Below are positions 1-10,173 of a stretch of DNA of 64,000 bases, one piece after another (within the stretch, counting starts at the first letter, position 1; the number at the start of each line of letters is the position of its first letter). The translations under genes and the position numbers were made by a program. The stretch lies in assembly GCA_030059665.1 (NCBI GenBank), contig JANVYR010000001.1:672001-736000 (forward strand), given 5' to 3'. The stretch comes from Candidatus Calditenuis fumarioli (lineage in GTDB: Archaea > Thermoproteota > Nitrososphaeria_A > Caldarchaeales > Calditenuaceae). The notes beneath the pieces were generated by a model. It saw only the letters and a program-made list of their open reading frames with translations, had not been told where the DNA came from and searched no databases.

Positions 1-360
1 GAGCCTCCTGTCCTGAACGCGGATCAGCTCCGGCTCCGTCAGAACGCTCACCTCCAGCACGATCCCGTCCATCTCCTCCTCCCTCACCGGCTCGAACCTC
101 GGGTCCTCGAACGCCGCGGCGAGGGCGGCTTTGACGGTCAGGACCTCGAGCTCGTCGATCGCCCTCGGGAACCCTATGCATCCCCTCAGCTCCATCGACG
201 GGTGCTGGTACAACGTCACGAAGACCCCTCTCCTCAGGCCCGATCTCCTGAGACCGTTCAGCAGCTCCTCAGGGTCGCCGCCCCTCAGCGCGGTCTCGAT
301 GCTCCGCCTCGCGAGCCTGACCAACTCCTCGCCCAGCGGGTCGTCTATCCGTGTGACCAT
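1..360 (-). CDS. AMMECR1-domain protein (TIGR00296 family), 3' end cut by window edge
   Basis: Not in ORF track. Manual translation from ATG at 360: MVTRIDDPLGEELVRLARRS...RGVFVTLYQHPSMELRGCIG...AAFEDPRFEPV...LEVSVLTEPE, the AMMECR1 signature motifs. Confidence 0.9.
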   Translation of the reverse strand, partial: MVTRIDDPLGEELVRLARRSIETALRGGDPEELLNGLRRSGLRRGVFVTLYQHPSMELRGCIGFPRAIDELEVLTVKAALAAAFEDPRFEPVREEEMDGIVLEVSVLTEPELIRVQDRRL

Positions 361-393: not shown

Positions 394-1023
394 TTAGCCG
401 GGCCTTTCGCTGGCGAGCGCGTCCAGCAGCGGCCCTATCGACCGAACGACCGCCTCGACCGATGAATCCAGGTCTCCCCTGAGCTCGATGTAGGCGTAGA
501 CGTGGGGCAGCTCCGGCCTGACCGCGAGCAGAAGCACCGACGTCCCGGAGAGGGATCTGAGGAGGTCCTCGTCGATGGATGGTGGTGGGCCGTCGTACGC
601 GACCACGAAATCGCCGAGGTCGGAGCTGTGCTCTCCCCAAGCCCTCGCGCTCCTGACGGCTGGAGTCCCCTTCCTCAGCAGCGCGACGCTCCTGACCGGT
701 GGCCTGGCGACCGCTCCCCTGAGCATCACGAGGTCCCTCCTGCCCGCGAGGCGGGCTGCGACGAAGCCGAACGCGTTGGACCTGGGCACGATACCGACGA
801 GGACTGAGAACTCGACCAGCTCGCCGAGCCTCTTCCCTGAGACCAGCGCCATGGAGGAAGACCTCCGGACGACCCTCACCTCGGCACCCATCCGCGTAAG
901 CGACCTCCTCAGCACCTCGATGACCGACTCGACCCTCTTCCGACCGATGAAGTTTCCGGCCACGATCGAGGCGGTTACTGCCACTATCAGCACCAGGAGG
1001 ATTGTGGACTCGTCGAGCTGCAT
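394..1023 (-). CDS. Single-pass membrane-anchored protein, possibly CCDC47/DUF1682-like
   Basis: 209-aa ORF with an N-terminal hydrophobic helix followed by an alpha/beta domain. Co-oriented with the cstA-ArsA operon. Confidence 0.75.
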   Translation of the reverse strand: MQLDESTILLVLIVAVTASIVAGNFIGRKRVESVIEVLRRSLTRMGAEVRVVRRSSSMALVSGKRLGELVEFSVLVGIVPRSNAFGFVAARLAGRRDLVMLRGAVARPPVRSVALLRKGTPAVRSARAWGEHSSDLGDFVVAYDGPPPSIDEDLLRSLSGTSVLLLAVRPELPHVYAYIELRGDLDSSVEAVVRSIGPLLDALASERPG

Positions 1024-1062
1024 CGCTCAGCGTTATCGGTTCCGGGTAAAAGGGAGTGCGGA

Positions 1063-1536
1063 TCAGTGGCACTCGGATTCCTGAAGCGCCTCCAGCACCT
1101 CCTCGGGAAGCTCCGAGGGCGAGGTGACCTGTATCGTGATCCTCCGGTCGGTGACGTCGCAGTACGTTTTGATCTCGTGCTCCGTGACCCGCTCCTTCCT
1201 GAACAGACCCCTCGTGTACGACCTCACGGTGACCAGCGCGATGTGGCCTCCGAGCCTCACGACCCTCTCCCCACCCGACGCGTGGCGGTCTGTCCTACCC
1301 TTCCCCTTCCTGATCTCGACGACGAGGTCGTAGCTCTCCCCTGAGACCTGATTGGCCAGCAGGTAGTGCGCGAACCCCTCGAGGATCCAGCGTCTGCCCG
1401 CCACCTCGCCCATGTAGTAGATGTCCGGCGGGTTCCTGCTCCTCTGCACCGTCCACCCCTCCGGAAGGGTCAGGGTGACCAGCGTGTAGGTCCCCATCAG
1501 GACGTTTCCGGTGAAGAGCTCGAACTTGCGCCTCAA
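1063..1536 (-). CDS. Hypothetical protein (157 aa), possible PsbP/Mog1-like fold
   Basis: C-terminal part of track ORF 1063..2247. Real start is probably the TTG at 1536 just after the ArsA stop (MRRKFELFTG...LTLPEGW...YCDVTDRR...ECH). Confidence 0.7.
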   Translation of the reverse strand: MRRKFELFTGNVLMGTYTLVTLTLPEGWTVQRSRNPPDIYYMGEVAGRRWILEGFAHYLLANQVSGESYDLVVEIRKGKGRTDRHASGGERVVRLGGHIALVTVRSYTRGLFRKERVTEHEIKTYCDVTDRRITIQVTSPSELPEEVLEALQESECH

Positions 1537-1547
1537 GGCCCACGCTC

Positions 1548-2555
1548 CTACGCGGGGATCGGCGGGGTGTAGCTGCGGAGGTCCCTGATCACGTCCTTGA
1601 GGGCCTCGATCCCCCTCACCTCTGACGGGAAGGACCTGACGTACCCTATCACGAGCCTCCCCAACCTCTCCTCGATCATCCTGAGGTAGCCGCGCTGCTC
1701 CTCGACCTTCGCCGCGAGGTACCCGCTCGGATCCGTGGAGGCGTCGGAGACGTCGATCACGTTGTTCACGAAGACGCCGCCGACGGGAATGTTGAAGGAC
1801 TCGACCATCCGGATGAACCTGACCACGACGGATATCGGCAACGACTCGGGCGTCGTGACGAAGTAGAAGCCGGTCAGCTGGGGGTTCGTGATGACCTCCC
1901 TGGTTTTGGTGAACTTCTCGTTCAGCGATATCAGGTCCGCTATCACCGGGTCCCTCTTGATCTCCTCCATCACCTTCTCCTTCCTGAAGGAGAGCCTGAG
2001 CCTGTACTCCATCGCCTCCCTCCTCGACTGGATCATCCTCGCGAGCCAGAGGCCGTAGAGCTTGCTGAGGCCGATCAGCCTGACCGCGTTGGCGACGGCC
2101 GCGGTGTCGAAGACCACCAGGTCGTACTTCCCTCCCATCTCCAGCACTATGTCCATGACCCTGTCGAACATCGCGGACTCGTGGAACGCGGGGTTTGTCG
2201 TCGCCACCTCGATGAAGGGCTCCGGGTTTATCGGAACCTCGGCCCACTTGAAGAACTCCCTCAGCCGTGCGGTCATCCTGCTCTTGTACTGGCTCACGAG
2301 GTCCTCAATCTCCACCTCGACCGCGTCCAGGTTCGGAGCGCCCTTGACTGGCATTATCGTCCCGCCGGAGAAGTCCTGTCCGAAGAGGCTCGAGAGCGAG
2401 TGGACGGGGTTCAGGCTCGCGAGGAGGACCTTCCTGCCGTGCTGGGATGCGTCCAGCGCAAGCGCAGCGGCTATGACGGTCTTGCCGACCCCACCCTTGC
2501 CGCCGACGAAGACGAACTTCCGGTCGCCGACGATGGGAACTCCCTGGCTCACCAT
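1548..2555 (-). CDS. ArsA/Get3(TRC40)-family ATPase, paralog 2 (degenerate switch I/II)
   Basis: P-loop GKGGVGKT; SLNPVHSL replaces STDPAHSL; DTAAVANAVRL replaces DTAPTGHTLRL. Start overlaps the paralog 1 stop. Confidence 0.9.
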   Translation of the reverse strand: MVSQGVPIVGDRKFVFVGGKGGVGKTVIAAALALDASQHGRKVLLASLNPVHSLSSLFGQDFSGGTIMPVKGAPNLDAVEVEIEDLVSQYKSRMTARLREFFKWAEVPINPEPFIEVATTNPAFHESAMFDRVMDIVLEMGGKYDLVVFDTAAVANAVRLIGLSKLYGLWLARMIQSRREAMEYRLRLSFRKEKVMEEIKRDPVIADLISLNEKFTKTREVITNPQLTGFYFVTTPESLPISVVVRFIRMVESFNIPVGGVFVNNVIDVSDASTDPSGYLAAKVEEQRGYLRMIEERLGRLVIGYVRSFPSEVRGIEALKDVIRDLRSYTPPIPA

Positions 2556-3544
2556 ATCCTGGTCACCCCGTCCACCAGGTGCCTTGCCACCTCCCTGATG
2601 CCGTCGAGGCCCTTGGGTTCCCTGGGGAACATGGGTATCGCGGCCACCACGAGGTCGCCGAACTTGTCCAGGATCATCTTCAGGACCTCTTCCTGCTGCC
2701 GGTACCTGTTCCTGATGTACGGCGACGGGTTGTCGGCCATCTCCCTCGGAAGCACCTTGTTCAGCACCACGCCCGCGGGTTTGATCCCAATAGCTTTGAA
2801 GGCCTCGAGCGCCTTCTCGGTGTCGTAGACCGACATGGCCTCCGGCGTCATCACCATGAAGAAGGCGGATTTGCTCCTGTCCCTCATCACGTCGGTGAAC
2901 GTCGTGAGCTTTCGGCGTATGTCGTAGAGCTCGTTGAGGATCTCGTCCTCCTTGACGAGCCGCTCGCTCCTGAGCTTCCTCGCTATCTCGTCGTACTCCC
3001 TCGCCTTCTCCCTGACCTCCGTCAGCTTCTCGACCCAGCTGGTCAGGACGTCGGCCATCGTGAGCATCCTGATCCCGTGACCGAAGGGCGGCATGTCGAA
3101 GACGTAGAGGTCGTACTCACCCCTCGCGACGTACTCAGCCATCGCGTCGTAGGTCGCGGACTCGTACATGGCCGGTTCGGCGACCGAGCTGTCGATGTAC
3201 GCCTCTATCTCCGGCGGTATCTGGTCCATCTTGTACATCTCCCTGATCCTCTGCTTCACCTCCTGGATGTACGCGTTGATCTTCGCGTCGGCGTCTATCT
3301 CGACGACGTAGAGGTTCGGCATGACCTCGACCTCGCCCTTCCCGAAGATGTCCCGCTCGAAGATGTCGCTGAGGCTCGCCTGTGGGTCGGTGCTGAAGCA
3401 GAGGACCTTCTTCCCCTCCCTCGCGGCGGCGTAGGCGAGGGCCGCGCTGCTCGTGGTCTTGCCCAGCCCTCCCTTCCCAGCGAATATCACCATCTTCACT
3501 CCGTCCCTGAGGACGATGTCCCTAAGGCCCCAGGCCACTCCCAT
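2549..3544 (-). CDS. ArsA/Get3(TRC40)-family ATPase, paralog 1
   Basis: GKGGLGKTT, STDPQASL, DMPPFGHGIRML, TPE and VLNKV motifs. ATG overlaps the upstream TGA. Confidence 0.92.
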   Translation of the reverse strand: MGVAWGLRDIVLRDGVKMVIFAGKGGLGKTTSSAALAYAAAREGKKVLCFSTDPQASLSDIFERDIFGKGEVEVMPNLYVVEIDADAKINAYIQEVKQRIREMYKMDQIPPEIEAYIDSSVAEPAMYESATYDAMAEYVARGEYDLYVFDMPPFGHGIRMLTMADVLTSWVEKLTEVREKAREYDEIARKLRSERLVKEDEILNELYDIRRKLTTFTDVMRDRSKSAFFMVMTPEAMSVYDTEKALEAFKAIGIKPAGVVLNKVLPREMADNPSPYIRNRYRQQEEVLKMILDKFGDLVVAAIPMFPREPKGLDGIREVARHLVDGVTRIW

Positions 3545-3822
3545 CACCCGTAGATGACGTCGGTGAAGTCCCGCTCCCGGTAGAACCTGTGCTTCCAGGA
3601 CTGGACGTTGGGGACAGCGTAGGGCAGAAGCCTCAGCGAGTAGTAGGGCGGGAGTATCGGGAAGCCGAGCATGTCCCCGAGGATCATCAGTATGAACATG
3701 TGCTCGATGTACATCCTCGTCTTGAGGACCGCAGAGACCTGACCGTGCAGCGCAGCGCCGTAGGTGACCTCGCCCAAAACCCTCTTCAGCTTTGAGAGCA
3801 GCCCCCCTTTCTCCTTCTCCAC
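3544..3822 (-). CDS. Small CstA-associated membrane protein (cory-CC-star-like)
   Basis: 92 aa with EHMFILMILGDMLGFPILPPYYSLRLLP, located between cstA and the ArsA genes, the context typical of CstA-associated small proteins. Confidence 0.75.
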   Translation of the reverse strand: MEKEKGGLLSKLKRVLGEVTYGAALHGQVSAVLKTRMYIEHMFILMILGDMLGFPILPPYYSLRLLPYAVPNVQSWKHRFYRERDFTDVIYG

Positions 3823-3884
3823 GGTGACTGTACGTTTGCAGGCCCTAAAAAATCTGATGGGTGCGAGCTCTTAGCGGACCTCGT

Positions 3885-5639
3885 TCAAGCCTGGCCGGCC
3901 TGGGGCTGCCTCGAGTACCTGACGAAGGCCCTGAGGAAGTAGATCGTCATCATCGCTCCGATGACGAACATTATTGCGCCCATCACCGTAGAGAAGGCGT
4001 TGACGCCTGCTAAGGCCGCTGGACCGCCGAGTTGGAGCAGGGGTGCCTGCTGGGCGAAGTAAGGTGCCGGTCTGCCGTCTCTGATGACGACCGGGGTGGC
4101 TGTCGCCGTCGCGAAGACCAGCGTCTGCCACGCTATCGCCGCGAGCGTTGTTATCATCATGAAGATCCCGGGTATCGTGCTGTACCAGTGGAACTTCCTC
4201 TGGGTGAAGAGGTAGAGGCCGACGATCAGCAGCGCGAAGCCCGCCAGGAGCTGGTTAGTTCCTCCGAAGTAGAGCCAGATGTTGATCCAGCTCCCGGTCA
4301 GGACGAAGGCTACCGGCAGAACGAATCCGAGGACCGTCGCCACGTATCTGTTCCCAAGGAAGCTGAGAGATGTGCCGGAGAAGATCTCGGCCATCGTCAC
4401 CCTCCAGAACCTTCCGAGGATCGTCAGGATCGTAACAGCCATCCCGACCATGTAGCTCGCGAAGAAGATCGTCAGGAACGGCACCGCGGCATCTCCTCCG
4501 AAAACAGGTTTCGTCAGCGTGGTAGCGCCCTTCGGGAAGTTGGCTGGGGCTACAGCAGTTCCCGGAGCGAGGACAATCCAAGCGGCGAGCGACGTCAGGC
4601 CAACCAGGTTCTCGCTAAGCATAGCTCCTGCCCCCACCGGTCTAACGTCGGTCTCGACGTCGATCTGCTTGCTAGTCAGCCCAGTACTGACGAGGCTGTG
4701 CCACCCAGAGACGGCACCACACGCTATGCTCACGAACAGTGCGGGCCAGAGCGGACCTGTGGTGAAGATGCGATCGCTGTAAAACTGGGTGAAGACCGGC
4801 ACCTGCACCTTTACGCCCGTGAAGACCGACGCGAGGGCTCCGACCGCCAGCATTATCACGGCCGGGAAGAGCGTGTAGTATGCGATGTAGTTCATCGGTG
4901 TGACAAGCGTCGGCATGGGCAGCAAGGCCCCAGCGACCAACAGGGCGATCAACGGCACGTACCAGAGCGTGTAGGGAGCCGGGCCCAGAGTACCGGGTGG
5001 AGGCCAGTTGAAGACAGCGCCGATCACCACACCGATGGCCAGAAGCACTATGGCGATCAGCGTGACCTGTACGACTGGCATCTTCCTCTTGAAGAGCAGG
5101 TGTCCGGTTATGACGGCCGCTATGGTGAGGTCCAGCAGCGACCAGAAAGAGCCGGCCCATGCGTCGATCACCGTCGCGACGACGAAGAGGAAGGCAGCGT
5201 TGATCAGCAGCAGGTAGAAGAGCAGGAATCCTAACAGGAGCCTCCTGGGCGTCGGGCCGAGGAGCTCGTACGCCAGCGGACCGAAGGACCTGCCCTCCTT
5301 CCTCACCGAGAGGAACATCGCGGAGTAGTCTTGGACCCACCCGATCAGCAGAGCTGCGAAGATGATCCAGAGGAACGCCGGGAGCCACCCGAAGGTCAGG
5401 GCGATTCCTGGCCCGAGTATCGGCCCCAGCGCGGCGATGCTGTTCCACTGGAACCCGTACAGCACGAACCTGGAGACCGGGAAGAACTCGACCCCGTCCA
5501 TGTACATGTGCGCAGGCGTCGGCCTCTTCGGATCCGGTGCCCACACCTTCCGGTCTATCCACTTGCTGTAGGTCCAATACGTCAGCAAGAACACGACGAT
5601 GCCGATGGCAGTTATGCCAAACGGCGTATCGAAGACCAT
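3885..5639 (-). CDS. cstA: Carbon starvation protein A (CstA)-family transporter
   Basis: 584-aa multipass protein with PTPAHMYMDGVEF, SIAALGPILGP, LFVSIACGAVSGWHSLVS and IWLYFGGTNQLLA motifs. Confidence 0.93.
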   Translation of the reverse strand: MVFDTPFGITAIGIVVFLLTYWTYSKWIDRKVWAPDPKRPTPAHMYMDGVEFFPVSRFVLYGFQWNSIAALGPILGPGIALTFGWLPAFLWIIFAALLIGWVQDYSAMFLSVRKEGRSFGPLAYELLGPTPRRLLLGFLLFYLLLINAAFLFVVATVIDAWAGSFWSLLDLTIAAVITGHLLFKRKMPVVQVTLIAIVLLAIGVVIGAVFNWPPPGTLGPAPYTLWYVPLIALLVAGALLPMPTLVTPMNYIAYYTLFPAVIMLAVGALASVFTGVKVQVPVFTQFYSDRIFTTGPLWPALFVSIACGAVSGWHSLVSTGLTSKQIDVETDVRPVGAGAMLSENLVGLTSLAAWIVLAPGTAVAPANFPKGATTLTKPVFGGDAAVPFLTIFFASYMVGMAVTILTILGRFWRVTMAEIFSGTSLSFLGNRYVATVLGFVLPVAFVLTGSWINIWLYFGGTNQLLAGFALLIVGLYLFTQRKFHWYSTIPGIFMMITTLAAIAWQTLVFATATATPVVIRDGRPAPYFAQQAPLLQLGGPAALAGVNAFSTVMGAIMFVIGAMMTIYFLRAFVRYSRQPQAGQA

Positions 5640-5663
5640 CGCGTTTCGACGGTGCAGGAAGTC

Positions 5664-5674
5664 TTATTTAATAA
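5664..5674 (-). promoter_or_regulatory. TATA box of the cstA operon
   Basis: TTATTAAATAA on the minus strand about 25 nt upstream of the ATG at 5639. Confidence 0.6.
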
Positions 5675-6400
5675 CTTACGGAGGATTGGTTTAACACGCA
5701 GAAACATGAGGAGATCGTCCGTTTTTCGGATTAGAATTCGTGGATATTCCATGTTCTGTGAAATTCGTGGCCGGAAACGGCACCCATGTTGACTGAATCG
5801 TCATCTTTCGTTCCGTATCATTACCGAACCACGGGAAAAATCCGCGGCGTAGAACGGCCCTTCTCGGGGTCGGCTCGGCTCTTCCCTCTTCACAGCTCAG
5901 TCTGGAGCGACTGGCCTCATCCCCCATTTGGTGTCCTCCGCAACTGGTTTTGAGGTTTGCCCAGCCGTCGGGTCGAACGCAGGCTCATTGTCATATAAAG
6001 GAGTTCGTAGAAATTCTACGTGGGATCTTAATGCCTGATGCGCTCTCATACTTACTGACGCTCCTTTGAGGGCGGTTGACGGAAGAGATAAGCCATCATC
6101 TGCGCCTTCCACGTCCTGAAGTCCCTCTTCCTTCCTCACCCGGTAAACACTTCTAAGATTGGTCAGAGACCCGACCATTTCCTGCTCTTTGGGTGCGGCG
6201 GGCGCCTCATCGGCCTCTCCGATCGGCTCCATATGACCCTGTAACCGTAGAAACCCCTCATCCGGTCTGCTGAGCCTCCATCAACTTTTCAAGGACGGGT
6301 ATTGCCTGAGCCTCCCCTTCCTGAACCAAAACCTCCTTCATGAGCTTGGACACTAACTCACATTCCTTATGAACCCGCATTGCGATGTGAGATGATAGGA

Positions 6401-7404
6401 ATGATCGGAGAAGCAAACCAAGAACGTCTCGATTCTAAGCTGAGAGAGAAGGCCCTCGAGCTGTATAGAAGGCTTGAGGGCCTTCCGTTGCCGAAGTTCC
6501 AAGGAGCGACGGTGGACTTCCACCAGAAGAGGCCAGCGATGGTTTTCATAGCGGAGAAGGAGCTGATAGCTCAAGTCGAGAACGGAGAACTCCTGAGGTT
6601 CCTCGTCGCGCAGGGCGTCCGCCGCGTGCTGGTGGATGCCCTATGGCCGAGCAACGTAGCCATCCTCAAGCAGCTAATCGAAAGCGGGATCGAGGTCTGG
6701 GTCCTAACCAGACCGTCGGCCCTTCACGGCTGGCGGAAAAACACGAGGGTAAGCCAAAGGGCCTCGTGGAGTGGTTAGAAAGACATCATCCGAAGGTTCT
6801 GGAGGGCTTCAAGCAAAGGATAAAGAAGGATGAATTCGATGCGGTTCTGTTGAGATATGTGAAGCCGAAATTTATGAGGCCTCTCTCGAAAGAGCATCTG
6901 ACGTGCTGGGTAAAGATGCTGTTATATCGGTATGCCAGAAGGAATCGTCAGGGACTGCTCCATCAGCTCGATGCTCTACCGGTGTCAGAAGATGAAAGGA
7001 CGTGGAGGATCGAGATGTCAGAAGATTATTTGATGATAGAGGCACAGAGCTTCATTGAAACCGTAAAGCGTTGCTATCCGGGGATAGATGAACTGTTCGA
7101 GGAACTCGGTATCTCAGACGACGTTATCGCTCAGGCATATGCGTGCGAAGTGTTCTTAGAGGTGGACGAGAGACGATCACCCTACCGGGAGAGAAATCAC
7201 TTCGGATTGAAGTGGGACGATGACGCCGAGCTTCTGAGGGACGGAGCAGCACTGTATGCATTGAATCAGTTGACGGCTAAGATAGAAGGAGTGAACCCGA
7301 AATTCGCGAAGAAAGGCTTCCGGAAGAAGGAGTGGATAGTCCTAACGAAAATCCATGATTTCAAAAGGCGATTGCTGATAGGGCCAGGCCGGACGCGGGC
7401 CTGA
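6401..7404 (+). mobile_element. Divergent IS110-family-like recombinase/transposase gene, split by a -1 frameshift near 6736-6742
   Basis: Joined ORFs 6380..6778 and 6643..7404 give about 334 aa. RuvC-like acidic motifs VDFHQK, VLVDAL, KKDEFDA (cf. KTDxxDA); C-terminal LRDGAALYALNQ and KKGFRKKEWIVLTK resemble the IS110 C-terminal domain. Region is AT-richer than the host. Confidence 0.65.
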
Positions 7405-7549
7405 GGCCGGGCGCCTCGGCGGGGGAGACCCGGGCACGGGTACTCGCGCAGGCTCTAACCGCCCCCGCCGTGAGGCGGTGAGGCGTAACCTCCTCGAATG
7501 TAACACCGGCCCGGGCCCCAAACGACCGAGGTCGAGGACGCCCTGGGCG
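7386..7549 (+). ncRNA. Candidate structured ncRNA at the 3' end of the IS110-like gene (bridge/seek-RNA-like)
   Basis: Stems 7386-7390/7398-7402, 7412-7425/7462-7477 (2-nt bulge) enclosing 7428-7432/7437-7441, and 7491-7497/7532-7538; followed by a T-tract. Confidence 0.4.
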
Positions 7550-7577
7550 ACGAATCAAACGATCCAAACCCCTCCCC

Positions 7578-7592
7578 TTTCCTTTTTTCTTT
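7578..7592 (+). terminator. Pyrimidine/oligo-T tract, putative archaeal terminator
   Basis: TTTCCTTTTTTCTTT directly after the structured segment. Confidence 0.45.
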
Positions 7593-7699
7593 GTCGCATT
7601 AACCTCAGCACGTCCTTTTCACCTTGTTATGGCTTAATTCACAGGCTTCTCCCGGCTCCTGAGCCCATCCTCTGGCTTTGCGTTGGCGCTTCTCGTGTT

Positions 7700-7855
7700 T
7701 TGAAGGCGGCTCTTTATGAAGAGAAGATAGATACAGCGATATCCGTATTCAAGTCGATGTTCGGAGAAGAAGTGCTATCCAGTAAGCCGAAATGGATGAA
7801 GGTAGAGATGGTCCAGAAGGCATTCATATACAACCTGTTGCTGAACGCGGTGTGA
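7700..7855 (+). pseudogene. IS5-type DDE transposase C-terminal remnant
   Basis: LYEEKIDTAISVFKSMFGEEVLSSKPKWMKVEMVQKAFIYNLLL resembles the YxxRxxxETxFSxxKRxFG...KxxxYN C-terminus of IS5-type transposases. No N-terminal part is recognisable. Confidence 0.6.
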
Positions 7856-7989
7856 ACCCGAGACGAAGGAGCTCCAGCGGGAGAAGAGGGCATAGAGCCT
7901 AGGGAATTAGGCCACAAGGCATTGAGCTAAACAACTTTCACTCATCTCACCCTCATAGGGATTTATATATTCTCCTAAGCGCCAAAACT

Positions 7990-10173
7990 TCATTCGAGGA
8001 CCTGGACCACGTCATGCACGACGATCACCGTCCTGCCGTCCTGCTTCAGGATCCTAGCCTTGGCCAAAAATCGCCTGCCCTTCTTCACCAGCTCCCTAGG
8101 TCCGTAGTAGAGGTCCGCGTCGAGCCTCGCCCTGAAGCGGTCGTTCACCAGCACCACGGCGTAACCCGGACCGACCTTCTCCACCTCGACCTTCACGAGC
8201 GCTCCCGACTCGCTGGAGGCCCTGAGCGAGGACCTGGTGACGAACCTCCCGTTCACCTGGGCGACCTTCCGCTCCCTGACGAGCCTGAAGGCGGCACGTC
8301 TCACCACGTCCGGGTCCTCGTCAACGCTCTCCATCACCTCGGTCAGCGTCATCCCCCTACGCCCGCTCTTCAGCAGCGCGAGGTAGACGTCCTTCCTGGT
8401 CCTCTCGACGGCTCGCCTGAGCTCCTTTGCGGACCTGAAGGCCTCCGAGCCCAGATCTGTGCGCTCCTCATCCCCCCGCGGCCCCTCAGCACGCACTGTC
8501 TCCGGAGCGAGGACCGACCTCTCCGGCCGCCTCCACGGCCACGGCTCCCCTGGTGTTGGCATCGGGCCAGAGCGCGGAACCAGCACCTCCCTGACCTCCC
8601 TCGAGACCTCCTCGAGGATCGAGGCCATCCTTCTGGCCCTCCTGTAACCCTCCCGGAAGTAGTACTCCTCGACGGTACCCTCCGTGACCAGTATCAGCAC
8701 CTTTCCCGGCATCCTCCTGCCGGTCCGCCCCCTCCGCTGGACGTGCCTGATGCCGCTGGGTATTGGCTCGTAGAACACCACCAGCCCGCACTCGGGGACG
8801 TCTAACCCCTCCTCTCCTATCGAGGTCGCCACGAGGACCCTCGTCCTTCCCTCCCTGAAGTCCCTGAGGACCCTCATCTGCTCCTCCTGCGTCATCCTAG
8901 GCCCTCCCTTCCCCTCGGCCTTGCCGACGAAGAGCGCCGCATCGATCCCCTCGGACCTCAGCCGCTCCGCGAGGACCTCCGCCGTGACCCTCACGTTGGA
9001 GAAGACCAGGACCCTGTCCTGCGGCCTCTCCGCGAGGTGCGCCCTCACGGCCGATACCAGCGCGGTGACCTTGGGATGGTCTGCCGTGCAACCCTCCGCT
9101 GCCCTCAACAGCTCCGCGAAGTCCTCGCTCCGGACTATCGAGACGTGGCTCCTCAGCTCAGACCCCTTGAGGGACTCGAGGTAGCTGAGGAGCGTCCGGA
9201 CGTGCTGGCTCTCCACCAGCTCCAGGGCGTGGAAGAGGCTCAGCACCTGCGATATGACCTGAAGGAACCTCATCCTCGGACCCCTCGCGCCGGCCTCTGC
9301 CTCCGCCTTCAGCCGCTCCATCAGCGATAGCAGGACCTTCCGGTTCACCTCCACCTCCGCACCGATCAGCCCCGCTGACCTGAGGGCCTCTACGCGCCTC
9401 TCGATCGCCTTCCTTATCACGTCCCGGACCCGTTCGTACTCCGGGGTCAGCTGGACCCTCACCCATCCTACCTTGACGCCCGGGATGTAGGGTCTTACGT
9501 CCTCGTCGTCCTCAGTCCTCCACTCTATCCTCTCGATCCAGAGGTTGCGCACGACCTCGGTGACCGACTCCTTCGTGGAACCCGGAGAAGCGGTGAGCGC
9601 GAGGATCAGGGGCCACGGGCACCTCCTGACGTACTCGGAGGCGATACGGGTGTAGGCGTACCTCGCCTTCGAGCGGTGACACTCGTCCAGGACGAGGAGC
9701 GCGAACTCCTCGAGCGCCACCAGGCCGTTGCTCATGTCGTTCCACACGGCCTGAGGTGTACCGAGCACGACCCTCACCCTCCTGTCGATCCAAATCCCCT
9801 CCCTTCCCCTGACCTCGCCCGTGACGACGGCGACCTCCTCTCGGCCCAGCTTGAGGTGCCTCAGCAGGCTCTCCCGGTGCTGGAGCGCCAGCGGCTTGGT
9901 CGGTGCGAGGAACATGACCCTGCACCCCGGATACCTGCGGAGGACCTCCGCGATCACGAGCTCCGCGATCACCGTCTTTCCCAGCGCCGTCGGCAGGACC
10001 AGGAGCGTGTTGGCCTTCAGCGCGCCCTCGGCCATCTCGAGCTGGTACCTCCTCCCTTCGACGGCCCTCTCCCTAACCATCGGGTGCTCGACGTAGCCCT
10101 CTTCGCTGACCCGGAACGCCCTCGCTTGACCTCCGGCCGTCTCGCCCCCGACGTAATCCCTTAGGTCGACCAC
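7990..10173 (-). CDS. Hef/FANCM-like SF2 helicase without an ERCC4 nuclease domain
   Basis: LPTALGKT, DECH, LTASPG, ATSIGEEGLDVPECGLVVFYEP, QRRGRTGR. The C-terminus looks like a winged helix plus beta-barrel, not ERCC4. Confidence 0.9.
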   Translation of the reverse strand: MVDLRDYVGGETAGGQARAFRVSEEGYVEHPMVRERAVEGRRYQLEMAEGALKANTLLVLPTALGKTVIAELVIAEVLRRYPGCRVMFLAPTKPLALQHRESLLRHLKLGREEVAVVTGEVRGREGIWIDRRVRVVLGTPQAVWNDMSNGLVALEEFALLVLDECHRSKARYAYTRIASEYVRRCPWPLILALTASPGSTKESVTEVVRNLWIERIEWRTEDDEDVRPYIPGVKVGWVRVQLTPEYERVRDVIRKAIERRVEALRSAGLIGAEVEVNRKVLLSLMERLKAEAEAGARGPRMRFLQVISQVLSLFHALELVESQHVRTLLSYLESLKGSELRSHVSIVRSEDFAELLRAAEGCTADHPKVTALVSAVRAHLAERPQDRVLVFSNVRVTAEVLAERLRSEGIDAALFVGKAEGKGGPRMTQEEQMRVLRDFREGRTRVLVATSIGEEGLDVPECGLVVFYEPIPSGIRHVQRRGRTGRRMPGKVLILVTEGTVEEYYFREGYRRARRMASILEEVSREVREVLVPRSGPMPTPGEPWPWRRPERSVLAPETVRAEGPRGDEERTDLGSEAFRSAKELRRAVERTRKDVYLALLKSGRRGMTLTEVMESVDEDPDVVRRAAFRLVRERKVAQVNGRFVTRSSLRASSESGALVKVEVEKVGPGYAVVLVNDRFRARLDADLYYGPRELVKKGRRFLAKARILKQDGRTVIVVHDVVQVLE

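What the first reader, a model, noticed from the sequence alone, without database searches (positions are those of the whole stretch)
394..5639. cstA / small membrane protein / two ArsA-Get3 ATPases / two unknowns: an uncharacterised ATP-dependent membrane module
Seen: six co-oriented genes behind one TATA box (the two ATPase junctions overlap, the other gaps are 11-62 nt), with AMMECR1 following. The ATPases contain almost no Cys, so they lack the Cys metalloid site of E. coli ArsA, and no arsB/acr3/arsC gene lies in the window. Known: CstA proteins are secondary peptide/pyruvate transporters; Get3 inserts membrane proteins. Inference: the ATPase pair either energises or gates the CstA transporter, or is a dedicated biogenesis factor for it.
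Basis: partly seen in the sequence, partly recalled or inferred. Interest (0 to 1): 0.7.

Follow-up and report, generated by a model that had tools for sequence, protein, structure and literature searches.

The report
CstA permease with Get3-like ATPases
This is a hot-spring archaeon's copy of a widespread but never laboratory-tested gene module in which a CstA-family membrane permease always travels with small helper proteins and a pair of Get3/ArsA-type ATPases; one of the "unknown" genes is a miniature relative of CCDC47, a eukaryotic membrane-protein assembly factor said to be missing from prokaryotes.

Summary
Six co-oriented minus-strand genes lie at 394-5639: cstA, a 92-aa protein, two single-domain ArsA/Get3 ATPases, and two proteins with no family match. 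Junctions are +62, -4, -7, +11, +39 nt.

The idea is not new. Castillo & Saier (2010, PMC2963123) described cstA-cstX-(cstY)-arsA clusters and proposed that ArsA energises CstA through CstX. I found no laboratory test of this. This scan has also met the module before on other DNA.

- **Core module:** it is complete in 37 of 39 well-flanked loci from bacteria and archaea.
- **Co-occurrence:** in 41 Caldarchaeales genomes, CstA, both ATPases, CstX and CstY occur in exactly the same 17. The other 24 have no ArsA/Get3 at all.
- **ATPase pair:** the two form ancient alpha/beta clades. Beta has Asn in place of the catalytic switch-I Asp in 76 of 77 orthologues.
- **92-aa protein:** it is CstX (DUF7990, homologous to NCBIfam cory-CC-star).
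- **209-aa unknown:** it is CstY, with a CCDC47/TtfA fold (Z 16.3).
- **Other unknown:** it has an invariant His/Cys/Cys/His set.
- **Arsenic:** no arsenic genes were found in the genome.

The most likely reading is an ATP-coupled or ATP-gated CstA permease complex (about 0.45). A dedicated assembly machine is the main rival.

The parts
5664..5674 (-). TATA-like box (TTATTAAATAA) 24-34 nt upstream of the cstA ATG; candidate promoter
   Evidence: Read directly from the sequence. Function not tested.
3885..5639 (-). cstA: CstA-family multipass permease, 584 aa
   Evidence: PF02554 E 2.4e-105. Only 173 bits against the E. coli CstA equivalog NF011590, whose cut-off is 1188. Many hydrophobic segments. 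No solved relative.
3847..3852 (-). TTTTTT run in the 62-nt cstA-cstX gap; possible archaeal terminator/attenuator or second TATA-like promoter
   Evidence: The only T-run of 5 or more on the coding strand of the module. Role inferred only.
3544..3822 (-). cstX (a-type): 92-aa helical protein with GDxLGxP..PPYYSLRLLPY core; DUF7990 family
   Evidence: Its homologues carry PF25952 = DUF7990. 47 of 52 family members hit NF041419 cory-CC-star. At least 584 species genomes hold a relative. AF2 model is all-helical, pLDDT 76. 4-nt overlap with arsA1.
2549..3547 (-). arsA-alpha: single-domain Get3/ArsA ATPase, 332 aa. P-loop GKGGLGKT; switch I STDPQ (Asp54, codon 3386-3388); switch II DMPPFGH
   Evidence: PF02374 E 6e-71, TIGR00345 233 bits. 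Best solved relative is an archaeal Get3, 3zq6, E 1.4e-54. Alpha clade of 77 sequences, support 1.0. Motifs.
1548..2555 (-). arsA-beta: paralogous ATPase, 335 aa. P-loop intact; switch I SLNPV (Asn49, codon 2409-2411, in place of the catalytic Asp); switch II DTAAVAN (no Pro/Gly-His). Probable ATP-binding, hydrolysis-poor subunit
   Evidence: PF02374 E 4e-53. Alignment to 3ug6. Asn in 76 of 77 orthologues. Beta clade support 0.98. 7-nt overlap with arsA-alpha.
1063..1536 (-). unknown 1: soluble 157-aa protein (144 aa from the ATG at 1497) with invariant His85, Cys113, Cys143, His144 (numbering from the ATG); ends ...CH-COOH; probable metal site
   Evidence: No Pfam, NCBIfam or PDB match. Family found in 32 loci of bacteria and archaea, usually right after arsA-beta. 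Alignment A5. Present in 13 of the 17 module-bearing relatives.
394..1023 (-). cstY: 209-aa protein with an N-terminal membrane anchor followed by GRKR, then a cytoplasmic alpha/beta domain with the CCDC47/TtfA fold
   Evidence: AF2 pLDDT 96.1. Foldseek 7tm3_4 E 1.6e-5. VIA Z 16.3 over 207 of 209 residues; 9i78_4 Z 15.0; TtfA 6t84 Z 11.8. Atlas TM 0.79 to a PF07946 cluster. 14 of 44 family members hit Pfam CCDC47, best 25.6 bits. Family found in 55 loci.

Best explanation
The locus is a member of the cstA-cstX-(cstY)-arsA module (identity confidence about 0.95).

Most likely it encodes one membrane complex:
- CstA is the translocation pathway for a small carbon substrate, such as pyruvate, another carboxylate or a peptide.
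- A catalytically asymmetric ArsA-alpha/beta heterodimer sits on its cytoplasmic face. Alpha hydrolyses ATP. Beta binds ATP but lacks the catalytic Asp.
- ATP binding and hydrolysis in this dimer drive or gate transport, as ArsA does for the carrier ArsB.
- The small CstX proteins, one per ATPase protomer, couple ATPase to permease.
- CstY anchors or scaffolds the assembly at the membrane with its cytoplasmic CCDC47/TtfA-fold domain.
- The His/Cys protein, and the thioredoxin-like proteins encoded elsewhere in this genome, are accessory, perhaps metal- or redox-sensing.

Shown here: gene identities, folds, motifs, co-occurrence. Inferred: the physical complex, stoichiometry, direction of coupling and substrate.
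For: 1. **Order and coupling.** cstA-cstX-arsA-alpha-arsA-beta is kept in 37 of 39 loci with at least 3.5 kb on both sides, from Caldarchaeales, Bathyarchaeia, Thermoplasmata, Heimdallarchaeota, Symbiobacteriaceae, Anaerolineae, Terriglobia, Burkholderiales, Desulfobacterota and others. The genes stay together through local rearrangements. The cstX/arsA/arsA junctions overlap.
2. **All-or-none pattern.** In 41 Caldarchaeales genomes, CstA, two ArsA, CstX and CstY are in the same 17 genomes. None was found in the other 24, many of which are 95-99% complete.
3. **Matching numbers.** There are two CstX and two ArsA per genome in 15 of the 17 Caldarchaeales genomes; the other two, G005 and G040, have fragmentary or partial matches. 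There is one CstX (cory-CC-star) per genome in 17 actinobacterial genomes, and a single adjacent ArsA in the 10 actinobacterial loci examined.
4. **Asymmetric pair.** Alpha keeps S[TV]DPQ. Beta has S[TL]NPV in 76 of 77. The two are ancient sister clades that span both domains.
5. **Precedent from established knowledge.** ArsA converts the carrier ArsB into an ATP-driven pump. Castillo & Saier reached the same proposal from co-evolving trees.
6. **TtfA.** This solved bacterial protein has the CstY fold (Z 11.8). It is an accessory factor of the MmpL3 transporter (own knowledge).
7. **Fusions.** CstX-CstX and thioredoxin-like-CstX fusions exist, plus one CstA C-terminus-CstX fragment.
Against: - No interaction, transport or ATPase data exist for any member.
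- E. coli CstA and BtsT work as proton symporters without such ATPases.
- The closest solved relatives of both ATPases are archaeal Get3 targeting factors, not pumps.
- CstY's closest structural relatives are eukaryotic CCDC47, a biogenesis factor.
- The Cys/His-rich accessories are not explained by simple energisation.
- The CstA-CstX fusion fragment could not be located on a contig, and longer forms are rare.
Confidence: 0.45

Rival explanations
1. Dedicated biogenesis/assembly machine. The Get3-like heterodimer, the CCDC47-like CstY and CstX act as a private targeting and intramembrane-chaperone system. It inserts or assembles the multipass CstA permease rather than powering it.
For: Both ATPases are closest to archaeal Get3. 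CstY matches CCDC47 over its full length, including the N-terminal anchor and the N-out/C-in charge pattern. CCDC47 is part of the PAT chaperone for multipass proteins.
Against: - Operon-level, apparently stoichiometric co-expression with a single client is unusual for a chaperone.
- CstA homologues in E. coli and elsewhere insert without it.
- No Asterix homologue was found.
- CstY lacks the C-terminal part of CCDC47; the aligned chain range ends near residue 405.
- Both ATPases lack the Get3 CxxC zinc clamp.
- In the desulfobacterial-type loci, cstY and unknown 1 were not found nearby.
Confidence: 0.25
2. CstX proteins are the clients. The ATPase pair captures the hydrophobic CstX helices and delivers them to the membrane or to CstA in an ATP-dependent, regulated way. 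This switches the permease on or off, for example under carbon starvation.
For: CstX has a marginally hydrophobic, extremely conserved segment. The number of CstX copies matches the number of ATPase protomers. Get3 grooves bind single hydrophobic helices (established knowledge).
Against: - The conserved core holds invariant Asp/Arg/Pro/Tyr residues, unlike a tail anchor.
- It is not C-terminal.
- AF2 does not model a membrane span.
- The groove character of alpha/beta was not tested.
Confidence: 0.1
3. Metal, metalloid or thiol-reactive substrate handling on the ArsD-ArsA-ArsB pattern. Thioredoxin-fold and Cys/His proteins hand a soft ligand to the ATPase/CstX assembly for transport through CstA.
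For: - Unknown 1 has an invariant H/C/C/H set and ends in CH.
- A thioredoxin-like family with an HCxHC motif lies in 38 loci and is fused to CstX in some bacteria.
- Some CstX end in His-rich tails, and the actinobacterial ones end in CC.
- The unrelated E. coli CstA partners YbdD and YjiX also end in Cys-Cys.
Against: - The ATPases themselves have almost no Cys.
- There are no ars genes.
- The thioredoxin-like genes and unknown 1 are missing from many loci.
- The Cys/His sets could be structural zinc sites.
- Characterised CstA proteins carry pyruvate or peptides.
Confidence: 0.1

Closest known systems
cstA-cstX-(cstY)-arsA-homologue gene clusters (Castillo & Saier 2010, Int J Microbiol, PMC2963123; CstA family of transporters)
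   Same: Same parts and sizes: CstA, a CstX of about 90 aa, one or two single-domain ArsA homologues of about 330 aa, and a single-anchor CstY of about 210 aa. No ars genes. Adjacent ArsA pairs and paralogous CstX were already noted there.
   Different: That work listed 26 cases and found CstY in only five archaea. Here CstY is also in many bacteria. Three points do not appear in the passages of that paper I read: the fixed alpha/beta asymmetry, the His/Cys protein, and the thioredoxin-like family. No CCDC47-prokaryote link turned up in the paper searches. Nothing has been tested experimentally in either case.
ArsAB arsenite pump (E. coli R773 ArsA + ArsB, with ArsD metallochaperone)
   Same: An ATPase of the same superfamily attached to a secondary carrier. 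Two non-equivalent nucleotide sites. A thioredoxin-fold helper in some loci.
   Different: Here there are two separate half-size proteins instead of a fused A1-A2 protein. No metalloid Cys triad (0-1 Cys). TIGR04291 scores are 107 and 80 bits against a cut-off of 650. The carrier is CstA. No ArsB or Acr3 in the genome.
Get3/TRC40 tail-anchor targeting ATPases (archaeal Get3: PDB 3zq6, 3ug6)
   Same: Best solved relatives (E 1e-54 and 9e-43). Full-length collinear alignment. Both pass TIGR00345.
   Different: An obligate alpha/beta pair instead of a zinc-clamped homodimer. The CxxC motif is absent. Beta lacks the catalytic Asp. The genes are present only where CstA is present, so this is not a housekeeping pathway.
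Eukaryotic CCDC47 (PAT complex subunit, PF07946/DUF1682) and mycobacterial TtfA (PDB 6t84)
   Same: CstY shares the N-terminal anchor plus alpha/beta domain. Z 16.3, 15.0 and 11.5 to translocon chains whose residue ranges fit CCDC47, and Z 11.8 to TtfA. TM 0.79 to a PF07946 cluster. Sub-threshold but collinear Pfam hits.
   Different: CstY is 209 aa, against about 480 aa for CCDC47. It has no lumenal domain and no C-terminal extension. No Asterix partner was found. The window's own protein gives no Pfam hit. It is encoded with a transporter and ATPases, not with translocon genes.
Mycobacterial BagAB (Rv3679/Rv3680), a heterodimeric Get3-like ATPase pair (own knowledge; the primary paper is not in the searchable library)
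   Same: Two adjacent paralogous Get3/ArsA-like ATPases thought to act as a heterodimer.
   Different: Not orthologous. NF053622 and NF053621 score 38-53 bits against cut-offs of 400 and 521, and only over the P-loop region. BagAB is not next to cstA (own knowledge).
E. coli CstA-YbdD and BtsT-YjiX (DUF466 small partners ending Arg-Cys-Cys)
   Same: A CstA-family permease with a co-encoded small protein. The actinobacterial CstX (cory-CC-star) also ends in Cys-Cys.
   Different: No similarity between CstX and DUF466 was detected. The E. coli systems have no ATPase. The window's CstX has no Cys.

Membership tests
CstA family permease (PF02554) | Match to the family model over its curated cut-off | tested here: met
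   353.8 bits against a cut-off of 27, E 2.4e-105.
Pyruvate/proton symporter CstA, E. coli equivalog (NF011590) | Score over the equivalog cut-off (1188 bits) | tested here: not met
   173 bits. The substrate therefore cannot be transferred from E. coli.
cstA-cstX-(cstY)-arsA module (Castillo & Saier 2010) | cstA adjacent to a CstX of about 90 aa and to single-domain ArsA homologue(s) of about 330 aa, without ars genes | tested here: met
   Gene order and sizes. The same order in 37 of 39 loci. No ArsB, Acr3 or ArsC found. Description.
cstA-cstX-(cstY)-arsA module (Castillo & Saier 2010) | CstY: protein of about 210 aa with a single N-terminal membrane segment in the same cluster | tested here: met
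   209 aa, hydrophobic residues 2-28. Family found in 55 loci.
Arsenical pump-driving ATPase ArsA (TIGR04291) | Fused two-domain protein of about 580 aa scoring over 650 bits | tested here: not met
   332 and 335 aa. 106.8 and 79.8 bits.
Arsenical pump-driving ATPase ArsA (TIGR04291) | Cysteine metalloid-binding site and an ArsB/Acr3 partner | tested here: not met
   1 and 0 Cys. No ArsB or Acr3 in the genome.
Get3/TRC40/ArsA superfamily (TIGR00345, PF02374) | Score over the subfamily cut-off; deviant Walker A GKGGxGKT | tested here: met
   232.9 and 177.6 bits against a cut-off of 135. P-loops.
Get3 tail-anchor targeting factor | CxxC zinc clamp of the homodimer | tested here: not met
   The aligned positions read SPYIRN and DPSGYL where archaeal Get3 has CEFC and CDFC.
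Get3 tail-anchor targeting factor | Catalytic switch-I Asp in every protomer | tested here: not met
   Alpha has Asp54. Beta has Asn49, and this is conserved in 76 of 77 orthologues.
Get3 tail-anchor targeting factor | Hydrophobic client groove and a membrane receptor | not testable with these tools
DUF7990 / cory-CC-star (PF25952, NF041419) | Homology to the family models | tested here: met
   All listed homologues carry PF25952, which is DUF7990. 47 of 52 members hit NF041419, best E 4.5e-12. The window's protein scores 28.9 bits, below the Corynebacterium equivalog cut-off of 80, so it is a homologue and not an equivalog member.
CCDC47 (PF07946, PAT complex subunit) | Sequence match over Pfam's gathering score (27.7 bits) | tested here: not met
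   The window's CstY gives no hit. The best family member reaches 25.6 bits, collinear 6-183 to 7-203 of 326.
CCDC47 (PF07946, PAT complex subunit) | Fold: N-terminal anchor plus cytosolic alpha/beta domain | tested here: met
   Z 16.3, rmsd 3.1, 207 of 209 residues against 7tm3_4. Z 15.0 against 9i78_4. TM 0.79 to a PF07946 cluster. That these chains are CCDC47 is inferred from the entries' contents and from the residue ranges.
CCDC47 (PF07946, PAT complex subunit) | Partner Asterix and association with ribosome/Sec translocon | tested here: inconclusive
   No PF03669 match in the genome, but the control genomes also gave none. Ribosome binding is not testable here.
BagA/BagB (NF053622, NF053621) | Score over the equivalog cut-offs (400 and 521 bits) | tested here: not met
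   38-53 bits, N-terminal region only.

The most novel reading that the evidence does not exclude
The module is a prokaryotic membrane-protein biogenesis device. A Get3-like heterodimeric ATPase works with a CCDC47-like anchor and small CstX helices to insert or assemble a multipass permease. Eukaryotic CCDC47, and so half of the PAT complex, descends from this CstY family, which is present in Asgard and other archaea. This would contradict the published statement that prokaryotes lack PAT components.
Probability: 0.15. Interest if true: 0.85.

Novelty: new member of a known kind. Interest (0 to 1): 0.58.

Why it matters
At least 584 species genomes of bacteria and archaea carry this module, yet none of its parts beyond CstA has a tested function.

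**If the ATPase pair powers or gates CstA.** It would be a second case, after ArsAB, of a Get3/ArsA ATPase converting a secondary carrier into an ATP-dependent system. It would also be a new principle for carbon scavenging.

**If instead it assembles CstA.** It would be a prokaryotic counterpart of the eukaryotic GET and PAT machineries.

**CstY in either case.** It shows that the CCDC47 fold exists in prokaryotes, with sub-threshold sequence similarity. The literature states that prokaryotes lack PAT components (PMC9630114). The fold also links CCDC47 to mycobacterial TtfA.

**The beta subunit.** Its fixed Asp-to-Asn change offers a natural, testable model of an asymmetric Get3-type dimer.

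Tried and rejected
**Readings rejected**
- *Arsenic pump.* No Cys site, half-size proteins, and no ArsB, Acr3 or ArsC in the genome.
- *General housekeeping Get3.* 24 of 41 relatives have no ArsA/Get3 at all, and every genome that has one also has CstA.
- *BagAB orthology.* Scores are far below the cut-offs.
- *CstX as DUF466 (YbdD/YjiX) or Asterix.* No Pfam similarity in 52 members. No Foldseek match for the CstX model. No ASTER match in the genome. These are absences, not proofs.
- *AMMECR1 as part of the module.* It was not found next to the module in any relative's locus, so its position here reflects a local rearrangement.

**Searches that gave nothing or failed**
- A riboswitch that would name the substrate: none upstream of cstA in seven bacterial loci or in the window.
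- Systematic fusions: only 2 longer proteins were found. The CstA-CstX fragment P0144 is not on record on any contig.
- The profile of CstY against PDB sequences found only chance hits.
- The profile of unknown 1 found nothing in the PDB or Pfam.
- The broad 52-sequence alignment was too diverse for the locus scan. A 13-sequence alignment was used instead.
- Two context look-ups returned only short contigs.

**Not done**

Full report
**What is in the window**

Six minus-strand genes fill 394-5639:
- cstA, 3885-5639, 584 aa.
- A 92-aa gene, 3544-3822.
- arsA1, 2549-3547, 332 aa.
- arsA2, 1548-2555, 335 aa.
- Unknown 1, 1063-1536.
- Unknown 2, 394-1023, 209 aa.

The junctions are 62 nt, a 4-nt overlap, a 7-nt overlap, 11 nt and 39 nt. 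AMMECR1 (1-360) follows after 33 nt.

For unknown 1, the ATG at 1497 gives 144 aa. Orthologues conserve the 13 residues upstream of it, so the TTG at 1536 (157 aa) is the likelier start.

Family matches are as follows:
- Pfam gives CstA at E 2.4e-105, and ArsA_ATPase at 6e-71 and 4e-53.
- NCBIfam places both ATPases in TIGR00345, far below the cut-offs for true ArsA.
- The ATPases hold 1 and 0 cysteines.
- No ArsB, Acr3 or ArsC family match was found in the whole 1.57-Mb genome, which is 91% complete.
- These two are the only ArsA/Get3 homologues in the genome.

A TATA-like TTATTAAATAA lies 24-34 nt before the cstA ATG. However, the only T-run of five or more on the coding strand sits in the cstA-cstX gap, so a single transcript is not shown.

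Names attached to close homologues place the organism in the Caldarchaeales (Candidatus Calditenuis / Caldarchaeum).

**It has been described before**

Castillo & Saier (2010, PMC2963123) reported 26 bacterial and archaeal clusters of this kind. Each held cstA, a CstX of about 90 aa, and one or two single-domain ArsA homologues of about 330 aa. Five archaea also had a CstY of about 210 aa. The authors proposed that ArsA energises CstA through CstX.

I found no later work on CstX. Two Get3 reviews and papers that I searched do not mention the cluster.

Earlier follow-ups of this scan met the same module on other DNA and reached the same placement. I re-tested their claims here and did not rely on them.

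**Conservation of the neighbourhood**

A scan with the CstX family found at least 584 species genomes. In the 80 best loci the order cstA, one or two cstX, arsA1, arsA2 recurs across many groups:
- Archaea: Caldarchaeales, Bathyarchaeia, Thermoplasmata, Heimdallarchaeota.
- Bacteria: Symbiobacteriaceae, Anaerolineae, Terriglobia, Burkholderiales, Desulfobacterota, Nitrospirota and others.

Of the 39 loci with at least 3.5 kb on both sides, 37 hold all four core genes. Within the Caldarchaeales the genes stay together despite inversions and reshuffling.

Phyletic patterns are all-or-none. Among 41 relatives, CstX, CstY, CstA and ArsA occur in exactly the same 17 genomes. ArsA is present as two copies in nearly all of them. 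None of the four was found in the other 24 genomes, many of which are 95-99% complete.

So in this order the ATPases exist only with CstA. They are not a general tail-anchor pathway.

**The ATPase pair**

Both are most similar to archaeal Get3 structures (3zq6 at 1.4e-54, 3ug6 at 8.8e-43). Both lack the Get3 CxxC zinc motif.

Across loci the two copies differ consistently:

| | First copy (alpha) | Second copy (beta) |
|---|---|---|
| P-loop | GKGGLGKT | GKGGVGKT |
| Switch I | S[T/V]DPQ | S[T/L]NPV in 76 of 77 |
| Switch II | DMPPFGH in 35 of 89 alpha orthologues, including this one | DTAxxAN, without the His, in most |

In this window the residues are Asp54 in alpha and Asn49 in beta.

In a tree of 168 sequences, alpha (77) and beta (76) are each monophyletic, with supports of 1.0 and 0.98. 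Each clade mixes bacteria and archaea (midpoint-rooted). The duplication is therefore old and the asymmetry is fixed.

From established work on Get3, an Asp-to-Asn change at this position keeps ATP binding but blocks hydrolysis. That beta is a non-hydrolysing partner is an inference from this.

**The 92-aa protein is CstX**

- Homologues carry PF25952, which is DUF7990.
- 47 of 52 diverse members hit NCBIfam NF041419, 'cory-CC-star', with a best E of 4.5e-12.
- The core GDxLGxP..PPYYSLRLLPY..P....WK is nearly invariant.
- AF2 gives three helices at pLDDT 76. The model has no structural match.
- Hydropathy is borderline for a membrane span.

This genome has a second paralogue 166 kb away, at G000:C1:509691-509930. 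In relatives the second copy lies inside the cluster.

CstX and ATPase numbers match:
- In 15 of the 17 module-bearing Caldarchaeales genomes there are two CstX and two ArsA per genome. The other two, G005 and G040, have fragmentary or partial matches.
- In Actinobacteria, 17 genomes carry one cory-CC-star gene. All ten loci examined read cstA, CC-star, one ArsA.
- That single ArsA belongs to a different lineage from alpha and beta.

This suggests one CstX per ATPase protomer, which is an inference.

A CstX-CstX fusion exists. One fragment joins a CstA C-terminus to CstX, but it could not be traced to a contig. Long forms are rare.

**Unknown 2 is CstY and has the CCDC47/TtfA fold**

An iterative profile search over locus ORFs found the family in 55 loci, including many bacteria.

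The evidence for the fold is:
- 14 of 44 members hit Pfam PF07946 (CCDC47). The best is 25.6 bits against a cut-off of 27.7, collinear over residues 6-183.
- The AF2 model has pLDDT 96.1 and pTM 0.89.
- Foldseek ranks three translocon chains first: 7tm3_4 (E 1.6e-5), 9i78_4 and 6w6l_7.
- VIA-align gives Z 16.3 with 207 of 209 residues aligned at rmsd 3.1, matching chain residues 135-405. It gives Z 15.0 and 11.5 for the other two chains, and Z 11.8 for mycobacterial TtfA, 6t84.
- The ESM Atlas gives TM 0.79 to a fungal cluster that is 96% PF07946. The feature search named the same family as the nearest annotated one.

I infer that the three chains are CCDC47. The entries contain CCDC47 and the residue ranges fit. 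The tool prints no chain names.

The anchor is followed by GRKR, so the domain should be cytoplasmic, as in CCDC47. This too is an inference.

The window's own protein gives no direct Pfam hit, and no Asterix homologue was found. [quoted passage not shown] I found no paper linking CCDC47 to TtfA or to prokaryotic homologues.

**Unknown 1 and further parts**

The unknown 1 family lies in 32 loci, usually directly after arsA-beta, in both domains. It has invariant His85, Cys113, Cys143 and His144, and it ends in CH. It has no Pfam or PDB relative. The Atlas neighbours are weak leads only.

Clustering the flanking ORFs revealed one more recurrent family of about 125-145 aa:
- It lies in 38 loci, often in two copies.
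- It has an N-terminal HCxHC-type motif.
- It has weak thioredoxin-fold matches: DUF1525, Thioredoxin_3, MJ0307 and MTH895/ArsE families, and 1fo5.
- It is fused in front of CstX in some proteins.
- This genome keeps two copies elsewhere, at C3:88895-89284 and C1:387903-388259.

Some CstX end in His-rich tails, and the actinobacterial ones end in Cys-Cys. The unrelated E. coli CstA partners YbdD and YjiX also end in Cys-Cys. I cannot explain this Cys/His theme.

**Mechanism**

The co-occurrence, translational coupling and matched copy numbers argue that the proteins act together with CstA.

The best-supported reading is an ATP-coupled or ATP-gated permease complex on the ArsA-ArsB pattern. One ATPase site would be catalytic and one regulatory. 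CstX would act as the coupler and CstY as a membrane anchor or scaffold. I put this at about 0.45.

The main rival is a private assembly machine for CstA, at about 0.25. It is favoured by the Get3 and CCDC47 relationships. It is disfavoured by the one-client, operon-stoichiometric arrangement and by the fact that other CstA proteins need no such help.

Two further rivals each get about 0.1:
- Delivery of CstX itself as the client.
- Metal or thiol handling on the ArsD pattern.

None can be settled without experiments or multimer models, which were not available.

**Verdict**

The locus is a new member of a known kind of module. The CCDC47-fold subunit, the fixed alpha/beta asymmetry and the Cys/His accessories make the module more interesting than its 2010 description suggests.

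One unpublished genome (G217) is among the 22 of 301 actinobacterial-phylum genomes counted. No other statement rests on it.

Noticed in passing
G000:C1:509691-509930 (outside the window; locus L031:8680-8955): A second CstX paralogue (b-type, ending HEGPGVH) sits alone 166 kb from the module. In relatives it lies inside the cluster.
   Followed up: partly
G000:C3:88895-89284 and G000:C1:387903-388259 (L158, L159): Two copies of a thioredoxin-like, HCxHC-motif family. In 38 other loci this family lies inside the CstA-ArsA module. In a same-genus relative (L040:12341-12775) it directly follows cstY, where this genome has AMMECR1.
   Followed up: partly
window 1-360: AMMECR1 follows cstY only in this genome. 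No AMMECR1 match was found in the relatives' loci, so a rearrangement breakpoint probably lies at about 360-394.
   Followed up: partly
window 5501-8000: GC falls from about 0.62 to 0.50-0.55 just upstream of cstA. Earlier notes of this scan read 6380-7592 as a decayed IS110/TasR-like mobile element with a guide RNA. It may have disrupted the module's upstream side.
   Followed up: no
proteins P0129, P0140, P0191; P0121: Natural fusions exist: thioredoxin-like domain + CstX (three proteins) and CstX + CstX (P0121, on an 800-bp contig, L153).
   Followed up: partly
G024:C1:551675-552100 and G021:C1:719542-719655: Two nearly complete Caldarchaeales genomes without CstA, ArsA, CstX or CstY still hold a copy (G024) or a fragment (G021) of the unknown 1 His/Cys protein. 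This may be a remnant of a deleted module.
   Followed up: no
L052-L056, L065, L066 against G019/G022/G025: The CstX of bacterial Symbiobacteriaceae and Thermaerobacter is 62-66% identical to the window's. That is closer than the CstX of another family of the same archaeal order (54-56%). This suggests transfer of the module between domains among thermophiles.
   Followed up: no
L154:3459-5426 and neighbours: In Candidatus Caldarchaeum the module is preceded by an acetyl-CoA-synthetase-like gene, an acyl-CoA dehydrogenase and thiolases. This is a weak hint at a carboxylate substrate.
   Followed up: no
L056:13919-14007: A c-di-GMP-I riboswitch (74.5 bits) lies about 1 kb beyond the module in a Symbiobacteriaceae genome. 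It probably controls another gene.
   Followed up: no
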